Both the position numbers and the translations under genes were made by a program. This document shows positions 2,153 to 18,085 of a DNA stretch of 45,418 nucleotides, piece by piece. The DNA is from a candidate division WOR-3 bacterium (GTDB lineage Bacteria; Hydrothermota; Tepidihabitantia; SM23-42): assembly GCA_030671005.1 (NCBI GenBank), contig DAOVAN010000002.1:1-45418 (forward strand). The letters run 5' to 3'. The stretch's first letter is position 1. Each line of letters opens with the position of its first letter. The notes below the pieces were generated by a model that searched no databases, was not told where the DNA came from, and worked only from the letters and a program-made list of their open reading frames with translations.

Positions 2153-2668
2153 ATGAAAGAGCTCGGAAAGATCAAGCTTTTCAAATATCTAACGCCTCAG
2201 GAAGTAGACTGGATGCTCGTCAAATGGCAACCTCGAGAAATCCCTGAAGGAACAGTCATCATCAAAGAAGGAACAGGCGGTGAGGATATGTTCCTCATCG
2301 AATCGGGTCGTGTTGAGATTTACCTCACGAGGGGTGACGTTGTCTTATTATTGACTGAGCTCCAGGAATCGTCCTTCTTCGGAGAAATGTCGATTTTAAC
2401 AAGCAAACCGCGCTCGGCAACCGTAAAAGCAAAAACCGACGTCCGACTACTCGTCCTGAAGAAGAAGGATTTCATGGATATTGTGAATGAAAATCCAAAG
2501 GTGGCAGCAAAGTTCTTGTTGGCAATGGGGGAGGATTTCTGTAATCGAATAATCACAACAAATACAAATTTAGAAAACTTTTTCCTGATAAATCAAGCGA
2601 TAGTCGACAATAAGTCTTTCCGGGAGCTTTACATACTTGCTCATAAGGCCCCATCGTCTAGTGGTTAG
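2153..2668 (+). CDS. cyclic nucleotide-binding domain protein (stand-alone cNMP-binding)
   Basis: 171 aa with the cNMP-binding signature FFGEMSILTSKPRSATVKA plus a beta-roll region. There is no obvious output domain. The last 22 nt overlap tRNA-Glu. Confidence 0.75.
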   Translation: MKELGKIKLFKYLTPQEVDWMLVKWQPREIPEGTVIIKEGTGGEDMFLIESGRVEIYLTRGDVVLLLTELQESSFFGEMSILTSKPRSATVKAKTDVRLLVLKKKDFMDIVNENPKVAAKFLLAMGEDFCNRIITTNTNLENFFLINQAIVDNKSFRELYILAHKAPSSSG

Positions 2669-2718
2669 GACATCACTCTTTCAAGGTGGAGACACGGGTT
2701 CGAGTCCCGTTGGGGCCA
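2647..2718 (+). tRNA. tRNA-Glu (anticodon UUC)
   Basis: Hand-folded cloverleaf. Acceptor is GGCCCCA/TGGGGCC, D stem GTCT/GGAC and anticodon stem TCACT/GGTGG. The anticodon loop is CTTTCAA (anticodon TTC) and the T arm is ACGGG-TTCGAGT-CCCGT. The discriminator is A and no CCA is encoded. Confidence 0.9.
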
Positions 2719-2739
2719 TTTTTCATTAAAGGAGAGGTT

Positions 2740-4791
2740 ATGAAAAAAACAATTGTTTTCATCGCAATAATCCCATTACTCGCTTTTACCCAGGAAATAT
2801 CCTTTTTTGGTAATAGGGGTATGTTCAGGGTAAAATATGCTGAGGGCCACAAGATGGGCAAGCTCTCTTTCCATCTTAATGCCGTTGAAAGGTATCAGAA
2901 CAACCGGGTTCTGATTCAGGGCGACTCAGTTACGGACCGGAATCACTTCTTGCAGACCAGGCTCGGAATATCGTACGCGATCAATGACTTCGTCGAAACA
3001 CGGTTCCATGTAGGTCCGTTCACAAAATACTACGAGGCCAATGACTACCCTATTCAGCGGGGTGATCCGAACCCGGTCATCGGTATCAACACCTATGAGA
3101 TCGGCCTGAAACTAGGGTATCTAACGGTTGCGAATGAAGCCACACCGACCACATACGCTTTTGGCATTGACGGCTACGTCGACTTTGGGCCGGGTCTTTC
3201 AACCGAATTGTTCTCGAATGCGTTTGAGAACGACCGCGCCCTCTACGCAGACTCCTTCTACCCTCCGGATTATATCAAAACAAACACCGTGCCTCACATA
3301 CCGCATAATCCGGATTTTGGGTTTGATGCGCTCTTCGATTTCCGAACCGGGCCTTTTGCTCTTCATCTGAATGTCGGCTACCTCATCACAGGAACCGATC
3401 AGAATCCTGGATATGTCACGCCGGCAGATTTTACGCTACTCGAAAGAGACAATATCATCCCGCACGGACTCGGGATAGAACTTGGTCCGGCTAAGGATCT
3501 GAGATTCTTATTCGAAACATCAGGGTATTCGACGCCCGGAATAGATTCTACCGTCTTATGGGTGACGCCGGGTATACGATTCGGTACGACGAATGTCAGT
3601 TTTGACCTTGGCTTTCAACTCGCCGTCGTGGGTGAATGGTTCTGGAAGCCTTTCTTCAATTTCTCGGGCGGTTATGATCTGGTAGAGAAGCCGACCGTGC
3701 CCATCGCACATGTTACCGGTATAGTAACCGACGCACAAATGAATACTCCTATAGCCGGGACAATCACTTTTCCGGACACGGAAAAAGAAGCCGTTCCCAC
3801 CTCACCGGATGGTAGTTATAAGCTTTCTCTGCCTCCGGGGAGCTACCGCATTCGCGCCGATGCGCCCGAACACAGATGGCGTGAGCAGAACATCGTCCTT
3901 AAGGATGGTGATAGAATTACGCTCAACTTCCCATTGAATAAAAAGCCGATGGCTAAGGTGACCGGCAGAATATATGATGCCGAAACCAATGCACCAGTAA
4001 TCGCTAACATAACGTTTCCTCAGACTGAATTTCCTACTGCTTCGTCAGATTCAGCCGGCTTTTACAGTATAGACCTGGCACCCGGGACGTTCAGGCTTCG
4101 TGTCCTTGCCCCGAATTACCTCGCCGAAGAGAGGTTCATCGACTTGAAGGAGAATGAAACCCAGGTCACTGACATTCCTCTTCACAAGGGTGGCGTACTC
4201 ACGGGTAAGGTATCTGAATTTGAAACCGGTAAGGCATTGCTCGCACAGGTCATTTTCGTTGGCTCCCAGATCCCCAAGGCAACGACTGAAGGAGCCACGG
4301 GTATATACAAGGCCGGAGTACCACCGGGCACCTATACGGTCAGGGTCGAGGCAGCAGACTACATACCTGAGACGATACCGCTTGTCATGGGACGAGACGA
4401 GACAAGGATTCAGAATTTTGTCTTGAAGCCTGTTCCCAAGGTGGGCGAAAGAGTCGTTCTCAAGGGCATAACCTTTGACTTCAATTCCGCAGTCGTCAAG
4501 CCGATATCCTATCCCGCGCTTGATGATGCAGCGCGCGTACTCAAGGCAAAGCCCAAGATGAAGGTAGAGATCGGCGGCCACACCGACAGTGTCGGTCCTG
4601 ATGCCTACAACATGAAGCTCTCAAATGAAAGAGCGATGGCGGTCCGTGAGTACCTGATGCGCTATCATAACATAGAAACCTACCGCCTCATTGCGGTCGG
4701 GTATGGAGAAACACAATCGATTGCTGACAACCGAACAAGATCGGGTCGCGACATAAATCGACGCATCGAGTTCAAGATACTGAGTTGGTAA
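2740..4791 (+). CDS. OmpA-family outer membrane protein with CarboxypepD_reg-like repeats
   Basis: ORF 2686-4791, but that start runs through the tRNA. ATG 2740 follows AAAGGAGAGG and gives the signal peptide MKKTIVFIAIIPLLAF. There are four repeated ~80-aa beta-sandwich units (e.g. GTYTVRVEAADY). The C-terminus is an OmpA domain (ITFDFNSAVV...GHTDSVGPDAYNMKLSNERAMAVREYL). Confidence 0.85.
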   Translation: MKKTIVFIAIIPLLAFTQEISFFGNRGMFRVKYAEGHKMGKLSFHLNAVERYQNNRVLIQGDSVTDRNHFLQTRLGISYAINDFVETRFHVGPFTKYYEANDYPIQRGDPNPVIGINTYEIGLKLGYLTVANEATPTTYAFGIDGYVDFGPGLSTELFSNAFENDRALYADSFYPPDYIKTNTVPHIPHNPDFGFDALFDFRTGPFALHLNVGYLITGTDQNPGYVTPADFTLLERDNIIPHGLGIELGPAKDLRFLFETSGYSTPGIDSTVLWVTPGIRFGTTNVSFDLGFQLAVVGEWFWKPFFNFSGGYDLVEKPTVPIAHVTGIVTDAQMNTPIAGTITFPDTEKEAVPTSPDGSYKLSLPPGSYRIRADAPEHRWREQNIVLKDGDRITLNFPLNKKPMAKVTGRIYDAETNAPVIANITFPQTEFPTASSDSAGFYSIDLAPGTFRLRVLAPNYLAEERFIDLKENETQVTDIPLHKGGVLTGKVSEFETGKALLAQVIFVGSQIPKATTEGATGIYKAGVPPGTYTVRVEAADYIPETIPLVMGRDETRIQNFVLKPVPKVGERVVLKGITFDFNSAVVKPISYPALDDAARVLKAKPKMKVEIGGHTDSVGPDAYNMKLSNERAMAVREYLMRYHNIETYRLIAVGYGETQSIADNRTRSGRDINRRIEFKILSW

Positions 4792-14230: not shown

Positions 14231-14917
14231 ATGATTGGAACGGTTGTAAACATAATCCTGGTAATCATCGGCAGCCTGCTCGGGCTGCTATTGAAGAAAG
14301 GCATACCGGACAATATCAAAAAGATAATACTGGTGGGTCTCGGGCTCTTCTCCTGCGTGCTTGGCACTAAAATGGGCATCGAAATGCAGCGACCCCTTGT
14401 CGTCATACTCAGTCTCATATGCGGTGGTGTAATCGGCGAGGTCCTGAAGATCGAAGATTTTTTGGAGGGCATTGGCGCAAGACTAAAGCGATTTACCAAA
14501 GCCCAGGGTGAAACATCTTTTACTGAAGGGTTTGTCACGGCCAGTCTTCTCTTCTGTGTTGGACCCCTGACAATACTCGGTTCGATTCAGGCCGGGCTCC
14601 AGAACAGGCCTGACCTTCTTTTCATAAAGGCTCTGATGGATGGAGTCTCATCAATCATTCTAGCGTCGACATTGGGTTTTGGTGTAATATTCTCCGCACT
14701 GACGGTGCTCATTATTCAAGGCGGGCTCACCCTGCTCGCCGGGCAGTTTCACTTTCTGACCAACCCAGCCTATCTCAATGACTTCGCGAGCGTGGGAGGT
14801 ATAATGATCTTTGCCATTGGCATCAAGCTACTGGGCATCAAGCCGATCAAAGTCGGCAACTTCCTCCCCGCCTTGATCATCGTAGTATTACTCACTTATT
14901 TCATTGGACTGATATAA
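14231..14917 (+). CDS. DUF554 (YqgA/YdfK-like) membrane protein
   Basis: 228 aa. The N-terminus MIGTVVNIILVIIGSLLG and the multi-TM layout are typical of DUF554. Confidence 0.7.
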   Translation: MIGTVVNIILVIIGSLLGLLLKKGIPDNIKKIILVGLGLFSCVLGTKMGIEMQRPLVVILSLICGGVIGEVLKIEDFLEGIGARLKRFTKAQGETSFTEGFVTASLLFCVGPLTILGSIQAGLQNRPDLLFIKALMDGVSSIILASTLGFGVIFSALTVLIIQGGLTLLAGQFHFLTNPAYLNDFASVGGIMIFAIGIKLLGIKPIKVGNFLPALIIVVLLTYFIGLI

Positions 14918-14942
14918 GTCATCGCTTCGTTCCACTAGAATC

Positions 14943-14971
14943 TTGACAAATACCCTGGCCAAAGATATACT
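14943..14971 (+). promoter_or_regulatory. sigma70-type promoter for the riboswitch and receptor transcript
   Basis: TTGACA at 14943-14948, a 17-nt spacer and TATACT at 14966-14971. Confidence 0.6.
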
Positions 14972-15140
14972 GGCCTGGCTGGTGGATTCAAGGGAAGCGC
15001 CGTGCGAATCGGCCGCGGTCGCCGCCACTGTGATTCCGAGTATACTCTGATCACAGAAAACCACTGTCCGTGCATACTAACAATATGTAGGATGGGAAGG
15101 TTGATCAGAGTCGGGTAAGCCAGGAGACCTATCCCCCAGT
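14972..15140 (+). promoter_or_regulatory. cobalamin (B12) riboswitch
   Basis: Conserved core strings GGTGG..AAGGGAAGCG..GTGCGAATC...GCCGCCACTGT are present, with the B12 box GTAAGCCAGGAGACCT at 15115-15130. A downstream GGAC-GAAAGGAG-GTCC hairpin encloses the SD of the receptor gene. Confidence 0.85.
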
Positions 15141-15173
15141 TACAATAAGAACCTTCGGACGAAAGGAGGTCCA

Positions 15174-17162
15174 ATGCTTTTTTTTATCCTTCAGATACTG
15201 ATTACCCAACCCATCTATGAAATGGACGAGGTTGTGGTAACGGCCAGGCGCTATCCGACCCTGCTGAAAGATGTCGCGGTCGCCGTCATGATCATCGAGA
15301 AAGAGCACATTGAAGCTCTTCAGCCAATCACCCTAGGCGAGGTTTTGCATGCTACAGCAGGTATTGATTTCAAGGATTATGGCACGCCAGGAGGTGTGGC
15401 GAGCATGGCCGTACGCGGAATACCTTCCCATGGCATACTTGTACTCGTAGATGGCCATCCCATCAATTACATTACAAATGGCATGGCTGACCTGAGTGTT
15501 GTCGATGTCAATACGATCGAACGCATAGAGATCGTCAAAGGACCCGTGTCGAGTGTCTATGGTGCAAATGCACTGGGCGCGGTGGTAAATATCATTACGG
15601 AAAGAGAATTCTCCAAATCCGAGATCGGCATGAAAATCACATCCTCGACCACAACCCTCGACACGCTTTTCCAGACGAGCAACATATTCACCGAGTTAGG
15701 CATGCCAGTACACAATAGCCAGTTGAGACTAGCCGGTGCATACACCAATTCTCATGGTTTCAGAAGCAACAGTGACTTGGGTAAATACCATGTTATTGGC
15801 TCGGTTCTTCACAAAGGTGATGATTTAGATCTCCGTGCATCGATTCTCTATGACGATAAGGAATACGGCATCCCGGGGCCAATGCCTCTTGTCGACAGCC
15901 TCCACCCCCTACCTCAGTTTGGAGACAGCACAGCAACATCATTGCATGACCGGGAAAGAGACAAAACCCTATTAGGTAAAATAGACACCGAATGGTCAAT
16001 TACTGATGATGTTAGCTGGTATAACAAAATTCATGCAGACCGAAGACGCACCGCGTTCCACACCACGTACGCTGGTTTGCCCGGCGATACGGTGAGCGAA
16101 GATTATGATTATCTCAGTCACACAATCGGCTTTAACACCATGACCCATCTGCACATGAAAACATTCGATCTTACCCTTGGTCTTGATGCCCATTATGACA
16201 CGCTTCAAACGCACAGCAGCTCTACCCTGAGCACAGACACAACTTGGCGTGCAAGCTCACACAACCTTGGAGCCTGGAGTGAGCTGAGGATCAGCCTGGC
16301 AGATTTAGTAACGGTAACATCAAGCATCCGCTTTGATCGTCACTCCCAGTTTGGTGGCTTTCTTTCGCCCGGCCTTGGTGTAGTCGGCATGATCAAACAA
16401 AACATCTGGCTGAAGTTTTCGGCTGGGAAGACGTTCCGCGCACCAACATTCAATGATCTCTACTGGCCTCATTCGGGCAATCCTGATCTCGAGCCTGAAC
16501 ATGGCTGGGCATATGAAATACGCATGGAGGGCTCGCCCTTACCCCAAATGCTCAGCGCGCTTTCGCTCTTCTTGCGTAATGTCTCCGACCGCATCGCCTG
16601 GCTCCCTGCTGAGGACAACCTATGGCAACCACAAAACGTCAATTATCTGGCCGTGAGGGGGATGGGCTTTGAATGGAGACATCACGTTTACAGCTTCGTG
16701 GAATATACTATCCAGGCAACCTACCTGGATGCTCGGCAAAAGAACGATGAAATCGTCTATTCCTATTATGACTGGATTGCTGACACCAGCCACACGGTCA
16801 TTGAAGAGATCGAACGAAGGGCCGCCTTCACCCCGAAACTGAACGTCATGACGAGAATCGATTTCAAGCTACCAAACAGGTGGCAGGCGAATATCGCTGG
16901 CTCATACGTTACAGAACGCGCAAATTACTATCCCAATTATAACAATTATCCGGTTGTATCCATGGACACAAAAATCCTGGATCCCTACTTCATCATCAAC
17001 GTTGCCTTGAGCAAGAAATTGTTCAGCTACGCCAAGATAACGGCGGGCATCAAGAATATGCTGAACAATAGCTATGCTACACAATTCGGGTACACATTAG
17101 ATGACCTCGATTACCCCATGCCTCATAGAACCTTTTTTGTCCGGTTAGCAATGCATTATTGA
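15174..17162 (+). CDS. btuB: TonB-dependent receptor (BtuB-like, cobalamin-riboswitch controlled)
   Basis: 662 aa with the TonB box DEVVVTA and plug motifs (IERIEIVKGPVSSVYGANALGAVVNIIT). The C-terminal beta-barrel ends in an aromatic residue (...RLAMHY). The substrate is inferred only from the riboswitch. Confidence 0.8.
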   Translation: MLFFILQILITQPIYEMDEVVVTARRYPTLLKDVAVAVMIIEKEHIEALQPITLGEVLHATAGIDFKDYGTPGGVASMAVRGIPSHGILVLVDGHPINYITNGMADLSVVDVNTIERIEIVKGPVSSVYGANALGAVVNIITEREFSKSEIGMKITSSTTTLDTLFQTSNIFTELGMPVHNSQLRLAGAYTNSHGFRSNSDLGKYHVIGSVLHKGDDLDLRASILYDDKEYGIPGPMPLVDSLHPLPQFGDSTATSLHDRERDKTLLGKIDTEWSITDDVSWYNKIHADRRRTAFHTTYAGLPGDTVSEDYDYLSHTIGFNTMTHLHMKTFDLTLGLDAHYDTLQTHSSSTLSTDTTWRASSHNLGAWSELRISLADLVTVTSSIRFDRHSQFGGFLSPGLGVVGMIKQNIWLKFSAGKTFRAPTFNDLYWPHSGNPDLEPEHGWAYEIRMEGSPLPQMLSALSLFLRNVSDRIAWLPAEDNLWQPQNVNYLAVRGMGFEWRHHVYSFVEYTIQATYLDARQKNDEIVYSYYDWIADTSHTVIEEIERRAAFTPKLNVMTRIDFKLPNRWQANIAGSYVTERANYYPNYNNYPVVSMDTKILDPYFIINVALSKKLFSYAKITAGIKNMLNNSYATQFGYTLDDLDYPMPHRTFFVRLAMHY

Positions 17163-17187
17163 CATTTTCGATCTCCGTGACTATAAT
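17159..17187 (+). promoter_or_regulatory. consensus sigma70 promoter for RNase P RNA
   Basis: TTGACA at 17159-17164 overlaps the receptor stop codon. An exactly 17-nt spacer precedes TATAAT at 17182-17187. The P1 5' strand starts at 17191. Confidence 0.75.
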
Positions 17188-17268
17188 CGAGTGTGGGGTA
17201 ATCGGATAGTCGCTCCACGTGAGAGGAAAGTCCGGGCTTCACAGGGCAAGATGCTTCCTAACTGGAAG

Positions 17269-17368
17269 CCCCGCCTCTTTCTTACCATATGAGATCGAGA
17301 AGATCGCGGCTCGTATTTAGGATAAAAAGTGTCTTCGTACAGTCTTGTATGGCTAAAAAGGGGCGGGG
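17269..17368 (+). repeat. RNase P insertion module copy 1 (hairpin replacing the P9 loop)
   Basis: The closing stem is CCCCGCCTCTTT/AAAGGGGCGGGG. The repeated core is 17281-17356 (CTTACCATATGAGATCGAGAAGATCGCGGCTCG...GTGTCTTCGTACAGTCTTGTATGGCTAA). Confidence 0.8.
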
Positions 17369-17390
17369 GGAAAGTGCCACAGAAAATATA

Positions 17391-17493
17391 CCGCCCTGCC
17401 CTTTTCTTACTATATGAGATCGAGAAGATAGCAGCTGATATTTGGGATGAAAAGCGTCTTCGCACATTCTTGTATGGCGAAAAAAGGGCGGGG
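17391..17493 (+). repeat. RNase P insertion module copy 2 (tip of P12)
   Basis: The closing stem is GCCCTTTT/AAAAGGGC. The core is 17406-17481, with about 65 of 76 positions identical to copy 1 by hand alignment. Confidence 0.8.
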
Positions 17494-17606
17494 TAAGGGT
17501 GAAAAGGCGAGGTAAGGGCTCACCGCTCTGATGGTGACATCAGGGGCTTGGCAAACCCCATCTGAAGCAAAACCAAGTAGTTCCGTTTGAAGTGGCCCGC
17601 TTCTTT

Positions 17607-17839
17607 CCCGCACCTATTTTGCCATATGAGATCGATAAGATCGCGGCTGATATTTAATATGTCAATATTCCTAAGAGAACGGAGATAGGCACAATACATG
17701 TTTTACAAACGATCTCAATTGAGTATTCAAGAATGGGAACGACGCTAGTGCTTTGGAAAGGTCCACAAATATGGAAGAGGCATTCCACGCTAGATGAAAA
17801 GCGTCTTCGCTCATTCTTGTATGGCAAAAAAGGTGCGGG
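17607..17839 (+). repeat. RNase P insertion module copy 3 (P16/P17 arm), split by a nested ~137-nt insert
   Basis: The closing stem is CCCGCACCT/AGGTGCGGG. The 5' half of the core is 17618-17655 and the 3' half is 17793-17828. The segment 17656-17792 sits where the apical loop is in copies 1 and 2. Confidence 0.75.
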
Positions 17840-18085
17840 ATCCGGAACGGGTAGGTTGCGCAGAACCTGGTAGTGATACCGGGACAAGAGAAATGGCTAT
17901 CTACTACAGAACCCGGCTTATAGATTACCCCACACTTTTCATTCAGGTGCAATGAGGAATCGGTGTTTTATTCTCTACATTTCTTGAAATTAATATAATG
18001 CTGGACGCAGTTGGCTTCGCTTTACCGAAAGGAAACCATGCACTTAACTCGTCTTCTGGACAAGCACGAAGGATGACAAATCACA

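What the first reader, a model, noticed from the sequence alone, without database searches (positions are those of the whole stretch)
17191..17935. RNase P RNA about twice the normal size, with three near-identical ~76-nt modules at the tips of P9, P12 and the P16/P17 arm
All type-A core elements are present, in order, and driven by a perfect TTGACA-17-TATAAT promoter. The gene nevertheless spans 745 nt, whereas bacterial RNase P RNAs are usually roughly 350-400 nt. The excess is three hairpins at 17269-17368, 17391-17493 and 17607-17839. They emerge where P9 normally ends in a small loop, at the tip of P12, and as an extra branch of the P16/P17 arm. All three carry the same core: C/T-TTAC(C/T)ATATGAGATCGA(G/T)AAGAT(C/A)GC(G/A)GCT...GAT(G/A)AAAAG(C/T)GTCTTCG..CA(G/T)TCTTGTATGGC. 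By hand count, copies 1 and 2 share about 65 of 76 positions. Each copy has its own GC-rich closing stem followed by a T-run/A-run. Each also has an inner CCATA/TATGG helix (CTATA/TATGG in copy 2, a wobble-compatible change). A distal helix GAAGA(T)CGC/GCGTCTTC is also present (GTGTCTTC in copy 1, again wobble-compatible). Three paralogous inserts in three different terminal loops of a conserved ribozyme do not look like ordinary helix-length drift. One possibility is the spread of a discrete structured element, analogous to rRNA intervening sequences or a hairpin-targeting mobile element. Another is a repeated protein or tertiary-contact platform. Archaeal RNase P RNAs carry protein-binding K-turns in P12 and P16, which is a loose precedent. 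The normal L9 loop, which usually makes a tertiary contact, is displaced. I am not aware of this arrangement being described.
Basis: partly seen in the sequence, partly recalled or inferred. Interest (0 to 1): 0.85.

Follow-up and report, generated by a model that had tools for sequence, protein, structure and literature searches.

The report
Hairpin elements colonising RNase P RNA
The gene for the RNA enzyme that trims tRNAs is twice its usual length in this uncultured WOR-3 bacterium because three copies of a small structured hairpin element sit in three of its outer loops, and relatives carry the same element family in different loops or not at all.

Summary
Window 17194-17936 (+) is a complete class-A RNase P RNA gene of 743 nt (RF00010, 235 bits, model 1-367). 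It has inserts in the P9 loop, the P12 tip and an extra hairpin 3' of P17. A second assembly reproduces it at 99.9% identity.

Comparison with nine related WOR-3 lineages changes the picture. The third insert (17606-17840) is a full-length, ~200-235-nt structured element. The two ~100-nt modules are copies of it lacking 17657-17792.

The same element family occurs in the orthologous btuB-rnpB-recJ locus of relatives, in other helices. It is in P12 in one lineage, P9 plus P12 in another, and the P17 arm in others. Three lineages have a normal 372-373-nt gene.

Elements are always in rnpB and always in the sense orientation. None was found elsewhere in 197 kb of related DNA. One subfamily is 84-88% identical between hosts with saturated synonymous sites, yet the window's copy differs from that of a 97%-identical relative.

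Best reading: an rnpB-resident, intervening-sequence-like mobile hairpin family with decayed miniature derivatives. Processing, the mechanism of spread and genome-wide copy number are untested.

The parts
17159..17187 (+). Sigma-70-type promoter of rnpB: TTGACA, 17-nt spacer, TATAAT
   Evidence: 12/12 consensus match. The same arrangement (TTGACA...TATAAT) precedes rnpB in L045.
17194..17936 (+). Complete class-A RNase P RNA gene (rnpB), 743 nt
   Evidence: RF00010, 235.2 bits, model 1-367/367. The core aligns column by column with 373-nt orthologues. It lies between the btuB-like receptor gene and recJ, as in all relatives.
17269..17368 (+). Miniature element 1 (~100 nt with its closing stem) replacing the P9 apical loop
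   Evidence: Insert state in P9. It is 85% identical to miniature element 2. The hairpin folds at -44 kcal/mol, z -4.9. The site is empty in L012, L013, L015, L019, L020 and L045. CM R1 scores it 34 bits.
17394..17493 (+). Miniature element 2 at the tip of P12
   Evidence: -40.7 kcal/mol, z -4.1. The orthologous site holds a different 66-nt variant in L011, a ~27-nt remnant in L012, and nothing in L013.
17589..17603 (+). P17 hairpin GAAGUGGCCCGCUUC. Its GGCCC loop can pair with GGGC at 17244-17247 to form P6 (inferred)
   Evidence: It is conserved in all relatives. The assignment is by analogy with the E. coli P17 loop and rests on my own knowledge, not on a tool result.
17606..17840 (+). Full-length element (subfamily C, 235 nt) in an extra hairpin ('P17.1') between P17 and the 3' strand of P16
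   Evidence: CM R1 scores it 151 bits. It is homologous to the 204-213-nt elements of L011, L012, L019, L039 and L045. It folds at -81 kcal/mol, z -6.5.
17657..17792 (+). Interior of the full-length element, absent from miniature elements 1 and 2
   Evidence: Global alignments of m1 and m2 against m3 give one ~135-nt gap.
17627..17634 (+). 5' strand of the conserved internal helix UGAGAUCG (partner strand at 17710-17717)
   Evidence: The helix is conserved in all eight full-length elements. L019 shows U-A to C-G covariation.
17710..17717 (+). 3' strand of the conserved internal helix CGAUCUCA

Best explanation
Shown:
- This is a genuine, promoter-driven, full-length class-A rnpB gene.
- Three of its peripheral apical loops are occupied by members of one family of self-contained structured hairpin elements. 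The loops are P9, P12 and a clade-specific hairpin 3' of P17.
- The family has full-length members of about 204-235 nt. Each has a ~21-bp basal stem, an 8-bp helix UGAGAUCG/CGAUCUCA enclosing a conserved hairpin, and a 3' domain.
- The family also has internally deleted miniatures of about 70-100 nt. The window carries one full-length copy and two miniatures.
- Across a WOR-3 subclade the elements are present, absent or in different helices of the orthologous gene. They are always in the sense orientation. They were seen only in rnpB.

Inferred:
- The elements behave like the intervening sequences of rRNA. They survive only in loops that make no essential tertiary contact.
- Their long basal stem stacks on the host helix, so the ribozyme core folds normally.
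- They are either tolerated in the mature RNA or cut out by RNase III, which would leave a fragmented but helix-held RNase P RNA.
- They spread at the DNA level, by copying a whole element-bearing hairpin between helices that share the stem CCCGCACC/GGTGCGGG. The route would be gene conversion or template switching, not a dedicated transposase.
- Full-length copies are under purifying selection on their RNA structure.
- The miniatures are decaying derivatives that keep only the hairpin needed to avoid disturbing RNase P.
For: Core integrity:
- RF00010 hits at full length.
- The global MFE keeps every insert as a separate hairpin.

Presence/absence and site change in orthologous loci:
- L013 and L015: 373 nt, no insert.
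- L020: 372 nt, no insert.
- L012/L018: 575 nt, element in P17.1 only, plus a P12 remnant.
- L045: 563 nt, P17.1.
- L019: 562 nt, P12.
- L039/40/41/44: 752 nt, P9 and P12, identical in 4 samples.
- Window and L017: 743 nt.

Replacement:
- Window and L011 are 92% identical at recJ fourfold sites.
- Their P17.1 elements are only 54% identical on alignment A5, 48% in the interior.
- blastn does not align the interior.

Constraint or transfer:
- L039's P12 element is 87% identical to L012's P17.1 element (84-88% against the three clade-I copies).
- recJ fourfold sites between those hosts are saturated at 36%.
- L039's two own elements are only 65% identical to each other.

Structure, on the 43 pairs of the consensus:
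- 94% of cells are paired.
- 13 pairs show compensatory changes, against 4.7+/-1.7 in shuffles (0 of 500 shuffles reach the observed value).
- Slid controls are 33-52% paired.
- Stems contain G-U pairs, so the constraint is at the RNA level.

rnpB restriction:
- nhmmer finds no copy outside rnpB in the 376 kb held.
- CM R1 finds none in 197 kb of WOR-3 loci, both strands.
- There are none in viral, plasmid or phage collections.

Hairpin transplant:
- Element-bearing P17.1 stems are CCCGCACC/GGTGCGGG, like the native P9 and P12 stems.
- Empty P17.1 hairpins have other stems.

Miniatures:
- They equal the full-length copy minus 17657-17792.
- Two of the 3 SNPs between window and L017 fall in miniature 1. 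Both move it towards the miniature-2 state.
Against: - No transcript data, so retention versus excision is unknown.
- No whole genome of an element-bearing strain could be searched. Only about 90 kb of DNA from element-bearing genomes was available, so a low-copy dispersed family is not excluded.
- The long-term sequence and structure conservation of full-length copies is more than a purely neutral passenger needs. It could mean a host benefit or an RNA-level activity.
- The copying mechanism is inferred from end sequences only.
- No clear target-site duplication was seen. There are TATA flanks in L019, but inverted flanks TTTG/CAAA or TATG/CATA elsewhere.
- Miniatures 1 and 2 are 15% diverged. 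That is hard to fit with a very recent duplication.
Confidence: 0.55

Rival explanations
1. Host-beneficial expansion segments. The element is a functional add-on of RNase P RNA in this clade. It could be a docking platform for a protein (for example a K-turn/L7Ae-type binder at CUGA...GAUGA) or a tertiary or intermolecular contact. It would work from any exposed helix tip.
For: - Full-length elements are conserved far above the neutral expectation, and their structure covaries.
- The hairpin CGUCC-UUCAAAGAAUC-GGACG and a GAUGA-like block are conserved.
- All copies are in the sense orientation.
- Archaeal and eukaryal P12-tip expansions bind proteins (PMC12974513).
- D. radiodurans has a functional P9 extension (PMC8457005).
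Against: - Three lineages, two of them nested among carriers, have no element.
- Position varies between the S-domain (P9, P12) and the C-domain (P17 arm).
- The window's miniatures lack the conserved interior.
- Copy 1 has CUCG...GAUAA instead of CUGA...GAUGA.
- L039_P9 and L045 also lack a clean GAUGA.
- The element at one site was swapped between hosts that are 97% identical in RecJ.
Confidence: 0.2
2. An ordinary dispersed palindromic repeat or MITE of these genomes, like Rickettsia RPEs, that happened to land in rnpB several times.
For: - Inverted-repeat ends, and miniature derivatives made by internal deletion.
- TATA on both sides of the L019 copy.
- Precedent of RPEs in the tmRNA and M1 RNA genes (PMC2229807).
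Against: - No copy outside rnpB in 197 kb of related DNA, against 15 instances inside rnpB.
- All copies are in one orientation.
- The interior is conserved with RNA-level (G-U containing) covariation, rather than only the ends.
- Flanks are mostly inverted, not direct, repeats.
- No transposase gene lies in the window or in syntenic loci.
Confidence: 0.15
3. Ordinary helix-length drift or slippage of P9, P12 and the P17 arm, with the sequence similarity due to chance or convergence.
For: Peripheral helices of RNase P RNA do vary in length between lineages (general knowledge; PMC12974513).
Against: - The inserts share 82-91% identity over 47-101 nt within one gene.
- They belong to a family recognisable by a covariance model at 150-234 bits in other lineages and other helices.
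- Chance expectation for the module pattern is 0.
Confidence: 0.02
4. Repeat-driven misassembly or a chimeric contig.
For: Some short-read contigs of this clade break inside rnpB (L011, L042).
Against: - A separate ENA assembly reproduces all three inserts with 3 SNPs in 3029 nt and no gaps.
- A 752-nt two-element rnpB is identical in four JGI samples.
- The CM threads the core through the inserts as one molecule.
Confidence: 0.02
5. The element encodes a micro-protein: a conserved ATG-led ORF, MRSKESTCMYYINVLQRIGRSEIYDLITSDLMR in subfamily B. This would resemble ORF-bearing 23S rRNA intervening sequences.
For: - An ORF of 33-52 codons starts at the conserved AUG in subfamilies A and B.
- One pair (L012 vs L039_P12) has 8 of 11 differences at third codon positions.
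Against: - Variable columns by codon position are 16/15/17. Nine other pairs show no bias.
- The ORF is frameshifted or truncated to 24 aa in L045 and 20 aa in the window.
- The start codon is buried in an 8-bp helix.
Confidence: 0.03

Closest known systems
Intervening sequences (IVS) of bacterial 23S/16S rRNA (Salmonella, Leptospira, Coxiella and others)
   Same: - Extra stem-loops replace the apical loops of peripheral helices of an essential structural RNA.
- A long basal stem is formed by the two ends.
- Distribution among close relatives is patchy.
- They are regarded as selfish or neutral (Coxiella IVS: PMC4990558, abstract listed).
   Different: - The host here is RNase P RNA, not rRNA.
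- Up to three copies of one family occupy three helices of one 370-nt core.
- No ORF is present.
- Excision by RNase III, which defines an IVS functionally, is untested here.
- The interior of the element is conserved and structured.
Rickettsia palindromic elements (RPE) inserted in the tmRNA and M1 (RNase P) RNA genes (Ogata et al. 2002, as cited in PMC2229807)
   Same: A small palindromic repeat element sits inside rnpB without destroying the gene, and is thought to be tolerated as neutral.
   Different: - RPEs are a genome-wide family found mostly in protein-coding genes.
- The element here was seen only in rnpB, in one orientation, in several helices, and with a conserved RNA structure.
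Bacterial MITEs (Correia, ERIC, RUP, Nezha and others)
   Same: - Short non-coding elements with inverted ends.
- Miniature derivatives arise by internal deletion.
- They form hairpins when transcribed.
   Different: - No dispersed copies were found.
- There is no consistent direct target duplication.
- No parent transposon was found.
- Constraint falls on the whole RNA fold rather than on the termini alone.
Lineage-specific helix extensions of bacterial RNase P RNA: the D. radiodurans P9 extension and P9c pseudoknot (PMC8457005), and cyanobacterial STRR repeats in P12 (my own knowledge, Vioque 1997)
   Same: The P9 and P12 tips are the places where bacterial RNase P RNAs tolerate extra sequence.
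   Different: Those are single, lineage-fixed extensions or simple heptamer repeats. They are not a shared ~200-nt structured module that moves between helices.
Archaeal/eukaryal P12 and P16 expansions with K-turns that bind L7Ae/Rpp38 (PMC12974513; general knowledge)
   Same: - Extra modules sit at P12 and in the P16 arm.
- Copies 2 and 3 carry CUGA...GAUGA, which could form a K-loop.
   Different: - The motif is not conserved across copies or lineages.
- These are bacterial class-A RNAs.
- No L7Ae-type partner was examined.

Membership tests
Bacterial RNase P RNA class A (RF00010) | Covariance-model match above the gathering score over the whole model | tested here: met
   235.2 bits against a gathering score of 100, model 1-367/367, no truncation.
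Bacterial RNase P RNA class A (RF00010) | Conserved core blocks (GAGGAAAGUCCGG, ACAGAA, GGUAAGGGUGAAA, ACAGAACCCGGCUUA) and helices P1-P5, P7-P11, P13-P15 and P18 in order | tested here: met
   All are aligned with high posterior probability. The core is column-for-column alignable with 373-nt orthologues.
Bacterial RNase P RNA class A (RF00010) | Catalytic activity on pre-tRNA | not testable with these tools
   Needs biochemistry. A second rnpB, or a protein-only RNase P elsewhere in the genome, cannot be excluded from a 45-kb window.
rRNA-type intervening sequence (IVS) | Replaces the apical loop of a helix of a structural RNA, with the ends paired in a long stem | tested here: met
   Insert states lie at the P9, P12 and P17.1 loops. 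There is a 21-bp basal stem with 7 covarying pairs. The hairpins are kept in the global fold.
rRNA-type intervening sequence (IVS) | Sporadic presence among close relatives or gene copies | tested here: met
   Orthologous genes carry 0 to 3 elements.
rRNA-type intervening sequence (IVS) | Excised from the transcript by RNase III without religation, giving a fragmented mature RNA | not testable with these tools
   No RNA data. The stems are long enough (more than 20 bp) to be plausible substrates, but that is inference only.
MITE / dispersed palindromic repeat | Many copies dispersed in the genome | tested here: inconclusive
   No copies outside rnpB in 197 kb of WOR-3 loci or in the 376 kb held. 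No complete genome of a carrier could be searched.
MITE / dispersed palindromic repeat | Terminal inverted repeats flanked by a direct target-site duplication | tested here: inconclusive
   Inverted ends GUGCUAUA.../...UAUAGCAC are present. TATA lies on both sides in L019. Flanks are inverted (TTTG/CAAA, TATG/CATA) in L011, L012, L039 and L045. Stems use G-U pairs, which points to RNA-level rather than DNA-level symmetry.
MITE / dispersed palindromic repeat | A related autonomous element encoding a transposase | tested here: not met
   No transposase domain was found among the 17 window proteins scanned, nor in the precomputed Pfam annotations of the syntenic loci. The rest of the genome was not available.
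K-turn / L7Ae-binding platform | Tandem sheared G-A pairs from CUGA and (U)GAUGA boxes next to a 3-nt bulge or loop, conserved in all copies | tested here: not met
   Copies 2 and 3 have CUGA...GAUGA. Copy 1 has CUCG...GAUAA. L011 and L012 have CUGU on the 5' side. L039_P9 and L045 lack GAUGA.
Known ribozymes and introns (group I/II, hammerhead, twister, HDV-like and others) | Match to an Rfam covariance model | tested here: not met
   Permissive cmscan (E up to 10) on window 17150-17990 and on L019 9400-9630 gives only noise hits.

The most novel reading that the evidence does not exclude
The ~200-nt element is a new class of autonomous structured RNA that lives specifically in RNase P RNA loops. 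Two forms are possible. It could be an RNA-level mobile or self-processing element. Or it could be a stable small RNA that hitch-hikes on the strong rnpB promoter and is released by RNase III or RNase P. Either way the organism would have a naturally fragmented RNase P RNA of up to four pieces. Its conservation at the level of the ribozyme core, its strict sense orientation and its rnpB-only distribution would then reflect its own function.
Probability: 0.18. Interest if true: 0.88.

Novelty: new variant of a known kind. Interest (0 to 1): 0.7.

Why it matters
**Size and mechanism of growth.** Bacterial RNase P RNA is a textbook conserved ribozyme of roughly 350-400 nt. Here a whole subclade of an uncultured phylum carries genes of 560-750 nt. 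The gene grew by repeated insertion of one structured module into its three permissive loops.

**A view of expansion in progress.** Empty sites, full-length elements, miniatures and near-deleted remnants can all be seen in orthologous genes. That gives a live view of how large RNAs acquire expansion segments by insertion rather than slow helix growth. Accretion models of RNase P and rRNA only infer this step.

**A map of permissive loops.** The occupied sites show which loops of the ribozyme tolerate large insertions.

**A testable prediction.** The long stems raise the possibility of a naturally fragmented RNase P RNA.

**A practical consequence.** These elements break short-read assemblies and attract spurious ORF calls. 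rnpB will therefore often look missing or odd in MAG quality checks for this clade.

Tried and rejected
1. **Collection scans for the window's module.** I scanned the GTDB representative genomes and the JGI metagenomes with ATATGAGATCGANAAGATNGC. This gave 1 and 9 hits. All were chance matches in coding sequence, and none lay in an rnpB.

2. **Viral contigs.** Four pattern scans gave only chance 16-18-mers. blastn against plasmids and phages hit only the RNase P core, plus one 27-nt chance match.

3. **Known RNA families inside the inserts.** Permissive Rfam scans gave nothing credible.

4. **Coding potential.** The conserved AUG-led ORF shows no codon-position bias and is truncated in two subfamilies.

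5. **K-turn platform.** The motif is not conserved between copies or lineages.

6. **A kissing contact.** A contact between the conserved UUCAAAG loop and UUUGAAG at the P16/P17 junction was considered by eye. It does not covary in L045, so I dropped it.

7. **The window's own contig.** Its exact RecJ protein is not on record, so the rest of this genome could not be reached.

8. **Literature.** Searches for a description of this arrangement found none. They did turn up the Rickettsia RPE precedent.
Full report
**1.

- A gathering-threshold Rfam scan of the window finds bacterial class-A RNase P RNA (RF00010) at 17194-17936 on the + strand. The score is 235 bits, E 2.4e-75, covering model positions 1-367 without truncation.
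- The alignment shows the conserved core in order. It has three large insert states: 93 nt in the P9 loop, about 80 nt at the tip of P12, and 17+231 nt in the P16/P17 region.
- A 12/12 TTGACA-17-TATAAT promoter lies at 17159-17187.
- Repeat analysis gives 17268-17368 vs 17393-17493 at 85% identity. The 50-nt left half and the 47-nt right half are each present three times at 82-91%.
- The module sequence occurs nowhere else in the 45-kb window, and none is expected by chance.
- Each insert folds as a self-contained hairpin, much more stable than shuffled controls. It does so in the minimum-energy fold of the whole 743-nt RNA as well.

**2. It is not an assembly artefact**

- The neighbouring TonB-dependent receptor protein has a 100%-identical entry in an ENA assembly.
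- That contig (L017, ERZ23498525 scaffold_74800, 3057 nt) matches window 14901-17929 with three mismatches and no gaps, and contains all three inserts.
- Two of the three mismatches fall in module 1. Both change it towards the module-2 state.

**3. What the third copy really is**

- Modules 1 and 2 align to the third insert (17606-17840) with one internal gap of about 135 nt, corresponding to 17657-17792.
- So the third insert is the full-length form. The two ~100-nt modules are internal-deletion miniatures of it.
- The hairpin GAAGUGGCCCGCUUC just upstream (17589-17603) is conserved in all relatives. By analogy with E. coli (my own knowledge) it is P17, whose GGCCC loop forms P6.
- The element therefore occupies an additional hairpin between P17 and the 3' strand of P16. 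Insert-free relatives have this as a short 7-bp hairpin.

**4. Relatives**

RecJ homologues place the organism in candidate division WOR-3. The locus order (B12 riboswitch, btuB-like receptor, rnpB, recJ) is conserved. I used it to fetch orthologous rnpB genes and annotated them with Rfam or by alignment.

| Locus | RecJ identity to window | rnpB length | P9 | P12 | P17.1 |
|---|---|---|---|---|---|
| Window / L017 | 100% (window; L017 has no recJ) | 743 nt | miniature | miniature | full-length, subfamily C |
| L011 | 97% | incomplete (contig starts inside rnpB) | not covered | 66-nt miniature | full-length, subfamily B |
| L012 / L018 | 88% | 575 nt | empty | ~27-nt remnant of a C-type basal stem | full-length, subfamily B |
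| L013 | 81% | 373 nt | empty | empty | empty |
| L015 | 79% | 373 nt | empty | empty | empty |
| L045 | 75% | 563 nt | empty | empty | full-length, subfamily D |
| L019 | 74% | 562 nt | empty | full-length, subfamily A | empty |
| L039 / L040 / L041 / L044 | 73% | 752 nt (identical in four samples) | full-length, A-like | full-length, subfamily B | empty |
| L020 / L024 | 72-73% | 372 nt | empty | empty | empty |

**5. The elements form one structured family**

- The consensus from eight full-length copies has four parts: a ~21-bp basal stem, an 8-bp helix UGAGAUCG/CGAUCUCA, a conserved hairpin CGUCC-UUCAAAGAAUC-GGACG, and a short helix closing a 3' domain.
- The 8-bp helix shows a U-A to C-G exchange in L019.
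- On the 43 pairs, 94% of cells are paired.
- Thirteen pairs show compensatory changes, against 4.7+/-1.7 in column shuffles (0 of 500 reach the observed value). Structures slid by 1-3 columns are 33-52% paired.
- L045 alone contributes three double changes in the basal stem (GUGACACA/UGUGUCAC versus GUGCUAUA/UAUAGCAC).
- Several stem pairs are G-U. The symmetry is therefore maintained at the RNA level, not as DNA inverted repeats.

**6. Evolutionary behaviour**

recJ fourfold-degenerate sites give a neutral yardstick. Element identities are from alignment A5.

| Pair | recJ fourfold-site identity | Element comparison | Element identity |
|---|---|---|---|
| Window vs L011 | 92% | P17.1 vs P17.1 | 54% (48% in the interior) |
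| L011 vs L012 | 71% | P17.1 vs P17.1 (both B) | 91% |
| L012 vs L039 | 36% (saturated) | P17.1 (L012) vs P12 (L039) | 87% |

- The subfamily-B copies of L012 and L039 sit in different helices yet are as similar as the ribozyme core.
- Between window and L011, blastn cannot align the element interior at all.
- L039's two own elements share only 65%.
- So full-length elements are either strongly constrained or transferred between lineages. They change helix, and they can be replaced outright between near-identical hosts.
- The miniatures look like decay products. The three clade-I lineages have three different deletion states at P12. The only SNPs in the window's rnpB relative to L017 are in a miniature.

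**7. Where the elements are, and are not**

- A profile-HMM search of all 376 kb held finds copies only inside rnpB.
- A covariance-model search (R1) of 197 kb of WOR-3 loci on both strands does the same. It finds fifteen instances, all in the sense orientation.
- There is nothing in viral contigs, plasmids or phages.
- Permissive Rfam scans of the elements match no known RNA family, ribozyme or intron.
- No transposase or other mobile-element gene lies in the window or in the syntenic loci.
- The limitation is plain. Only about 90 kb comes from element-bearing genomes, and no complete carrier genome could be searched.

**8. Ends and target**

- In every filled site the closing stem is CCCGCACC/GGTGCGGG. 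That is the native sequence of the P9 and P12 stems in this clade.
- Empty P17.1 hairpins have other stems, for example CCGGUGC/GCGCCGG in L020 and CCGCCGC/GCGUCGG in L013.
- This suggests that a whole element-bearing hairpin was copied from P9 or P12 into the P17 arm, rather than a bare element inserting into a loop.
- L019's P12 equals its own P9 hairpin (CCCCGCACC-UAUA-GGUGCGGGG) with the element and a second UAUA added.
- Elsewhere the 4-nt flanks are inverted (UUUG/CAAA, UAUG/CAUA). A transposase-type direct duplication is therefore not supported.
- Gene conversion or template switching between similar hairpins is my inference, not a demonstrated mechanism.

**9. Why these three loops**

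- The occupied loops are the apical loops without an essential tertiary role.
- L8, L14 and L18 (tetraloop contacts), L15 (tRNA 3' end) and L17 (P6) are untouched.
- Insert-free relatives have non-GNRA L9 loops. The L9-P1 contact is minor in mesophilic class-A RNAs (PMC8457005).
- The window's gene has all three permissive sites filled.

**10. Interpretation**

- The best-supported reading is an rnpB-resident, intervening-sequence-like family of structured hairpin elements with miniature derivatives. They are tolerated because their basal stems stack on host helices.
- Whether they stay in the mature RNA or are removed by RNase III cannot be told from sequence. The continuous stems of more than 20 bp make good candidate substrates.
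- The main rivals are a host-beneficial platform and an ordinary dispersed MITE.
  - The platform reading is favoured by the strong conservation. It is disfavoured by absence in three lineages, by shifting position and by decayed miniatures.
  - The MITE reading is favoured by precedent. It is disfavoured by the rnpB-only distribution, the sense-only orientation and the conserved interior.
- A coding function for the conserved AUG-led ORF was tested and rejected.
- A conserved K-turn was not found.

**11. Comparison with the known**

- A review (PMC2229807) reports Rickettsia palindromic elements inside the tmRNA and M1 RNA genes. A palindromic element inside rnpB therefore has precedent.
- rRNA intervening sequences are the closest functional analogue.
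- I found no description of the following combination: one structured ~200-nt family, up to three copies in one RNase P RNA, movement between P9, P12 and the P17 arm across a clade, and conservation comparable to the ribozyme core.
- I rate it a new variant of a known kind, with a modest chance that the element is something categorically new.

Noticed in passing
window 14967-15150 (+) and 15174-17162 (+): A cobalamin riboswitch (RF00174, 68.7 bits) lies directly upstream of a TonB-dependent receptor (Plug plus beta-barrel), which JGI annotates in relatives as outer membrane cobalamin receptor. The block DUF554 - riboswitch - btuB - rnpB - recJ - Cu-oxidase_4 - Peptidase_C11 - asparaginase is syntenic across the WOR-3 loci fetched. 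This is ordinary, but the block is a handy anchor for retrieving rnpB.
   Followed up: partly
L011:1, L042:1, L043:1 (contig ends): Several short-read metagenome contigs of this clade start inside or right after rnpB, at element boundaries. L011 starts at P10/11, and L042 starts just after the P12 element. The elements probably break assemblies, so rnpB may be missing or truncated in MAGs of this clade.
   Followed up: no
L017:2648-2827, L039:2389-2601, L040:2316-2597, L021:9355-9896: Public gene calls place hypothetical ORFs of 59-128 aa on top of these enlarged rnpB genes. They have no Pfam hit and are almost certainly spurious.
   Followed up: no
window 17277 and 17330 (vs L017): Two of the only three differences between the window and the second assembly over 3029 nt lie in miniature element 1. 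Both convert it to the base found in miniature element 2. This suggests ongoing gene conversion between copies or a raised mutation rate in the hairpins.
   Followed up: partly
window 17626-17688; L012:2320-2421; L019:9429-9557: A conserved AUG in the element opens an ORF of 20-52 codons with a shared VLQR(I/V/T)G motif. Codon-position analysis (16/15/17 variable columns) and frameshifts in two subfamilies argue that it is not coding. The conservation reflects the RNA hairpin CGUCC-UUCAAAGAAUC-GGACG.
   Followed up: yes
window 17269-17275/17362-17368, 17394-17404/17486-17493, 17607-17614/17832-17839; L019:9362-9383: In this clade the native P9 and P12 stems and every element-bearing hairpin share the sequence CCCGCACC/GGTGCGGG or close variants. 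L019's P9 hairpin is identical to its P12 hairpin with the element removed. This intragenic sequence similarity may be what lets the element move between helices.
   Followed up: partly
L020:9311-9573: In the element-free SM23_42-like lineage there are about 260 nt of extra non-coding spacer between the btuB-like receptor gene and rnpB. The other loci lack it. I did not examine it.
   Followed up: no
window 2647-2718 (+): A tRNA gene (67.9 bits) overlaps the mechanical ORF calls at 2153-2668 and 2686-4791. The 5' ends of those ORFs are probably mis-called.
   Followed up: no
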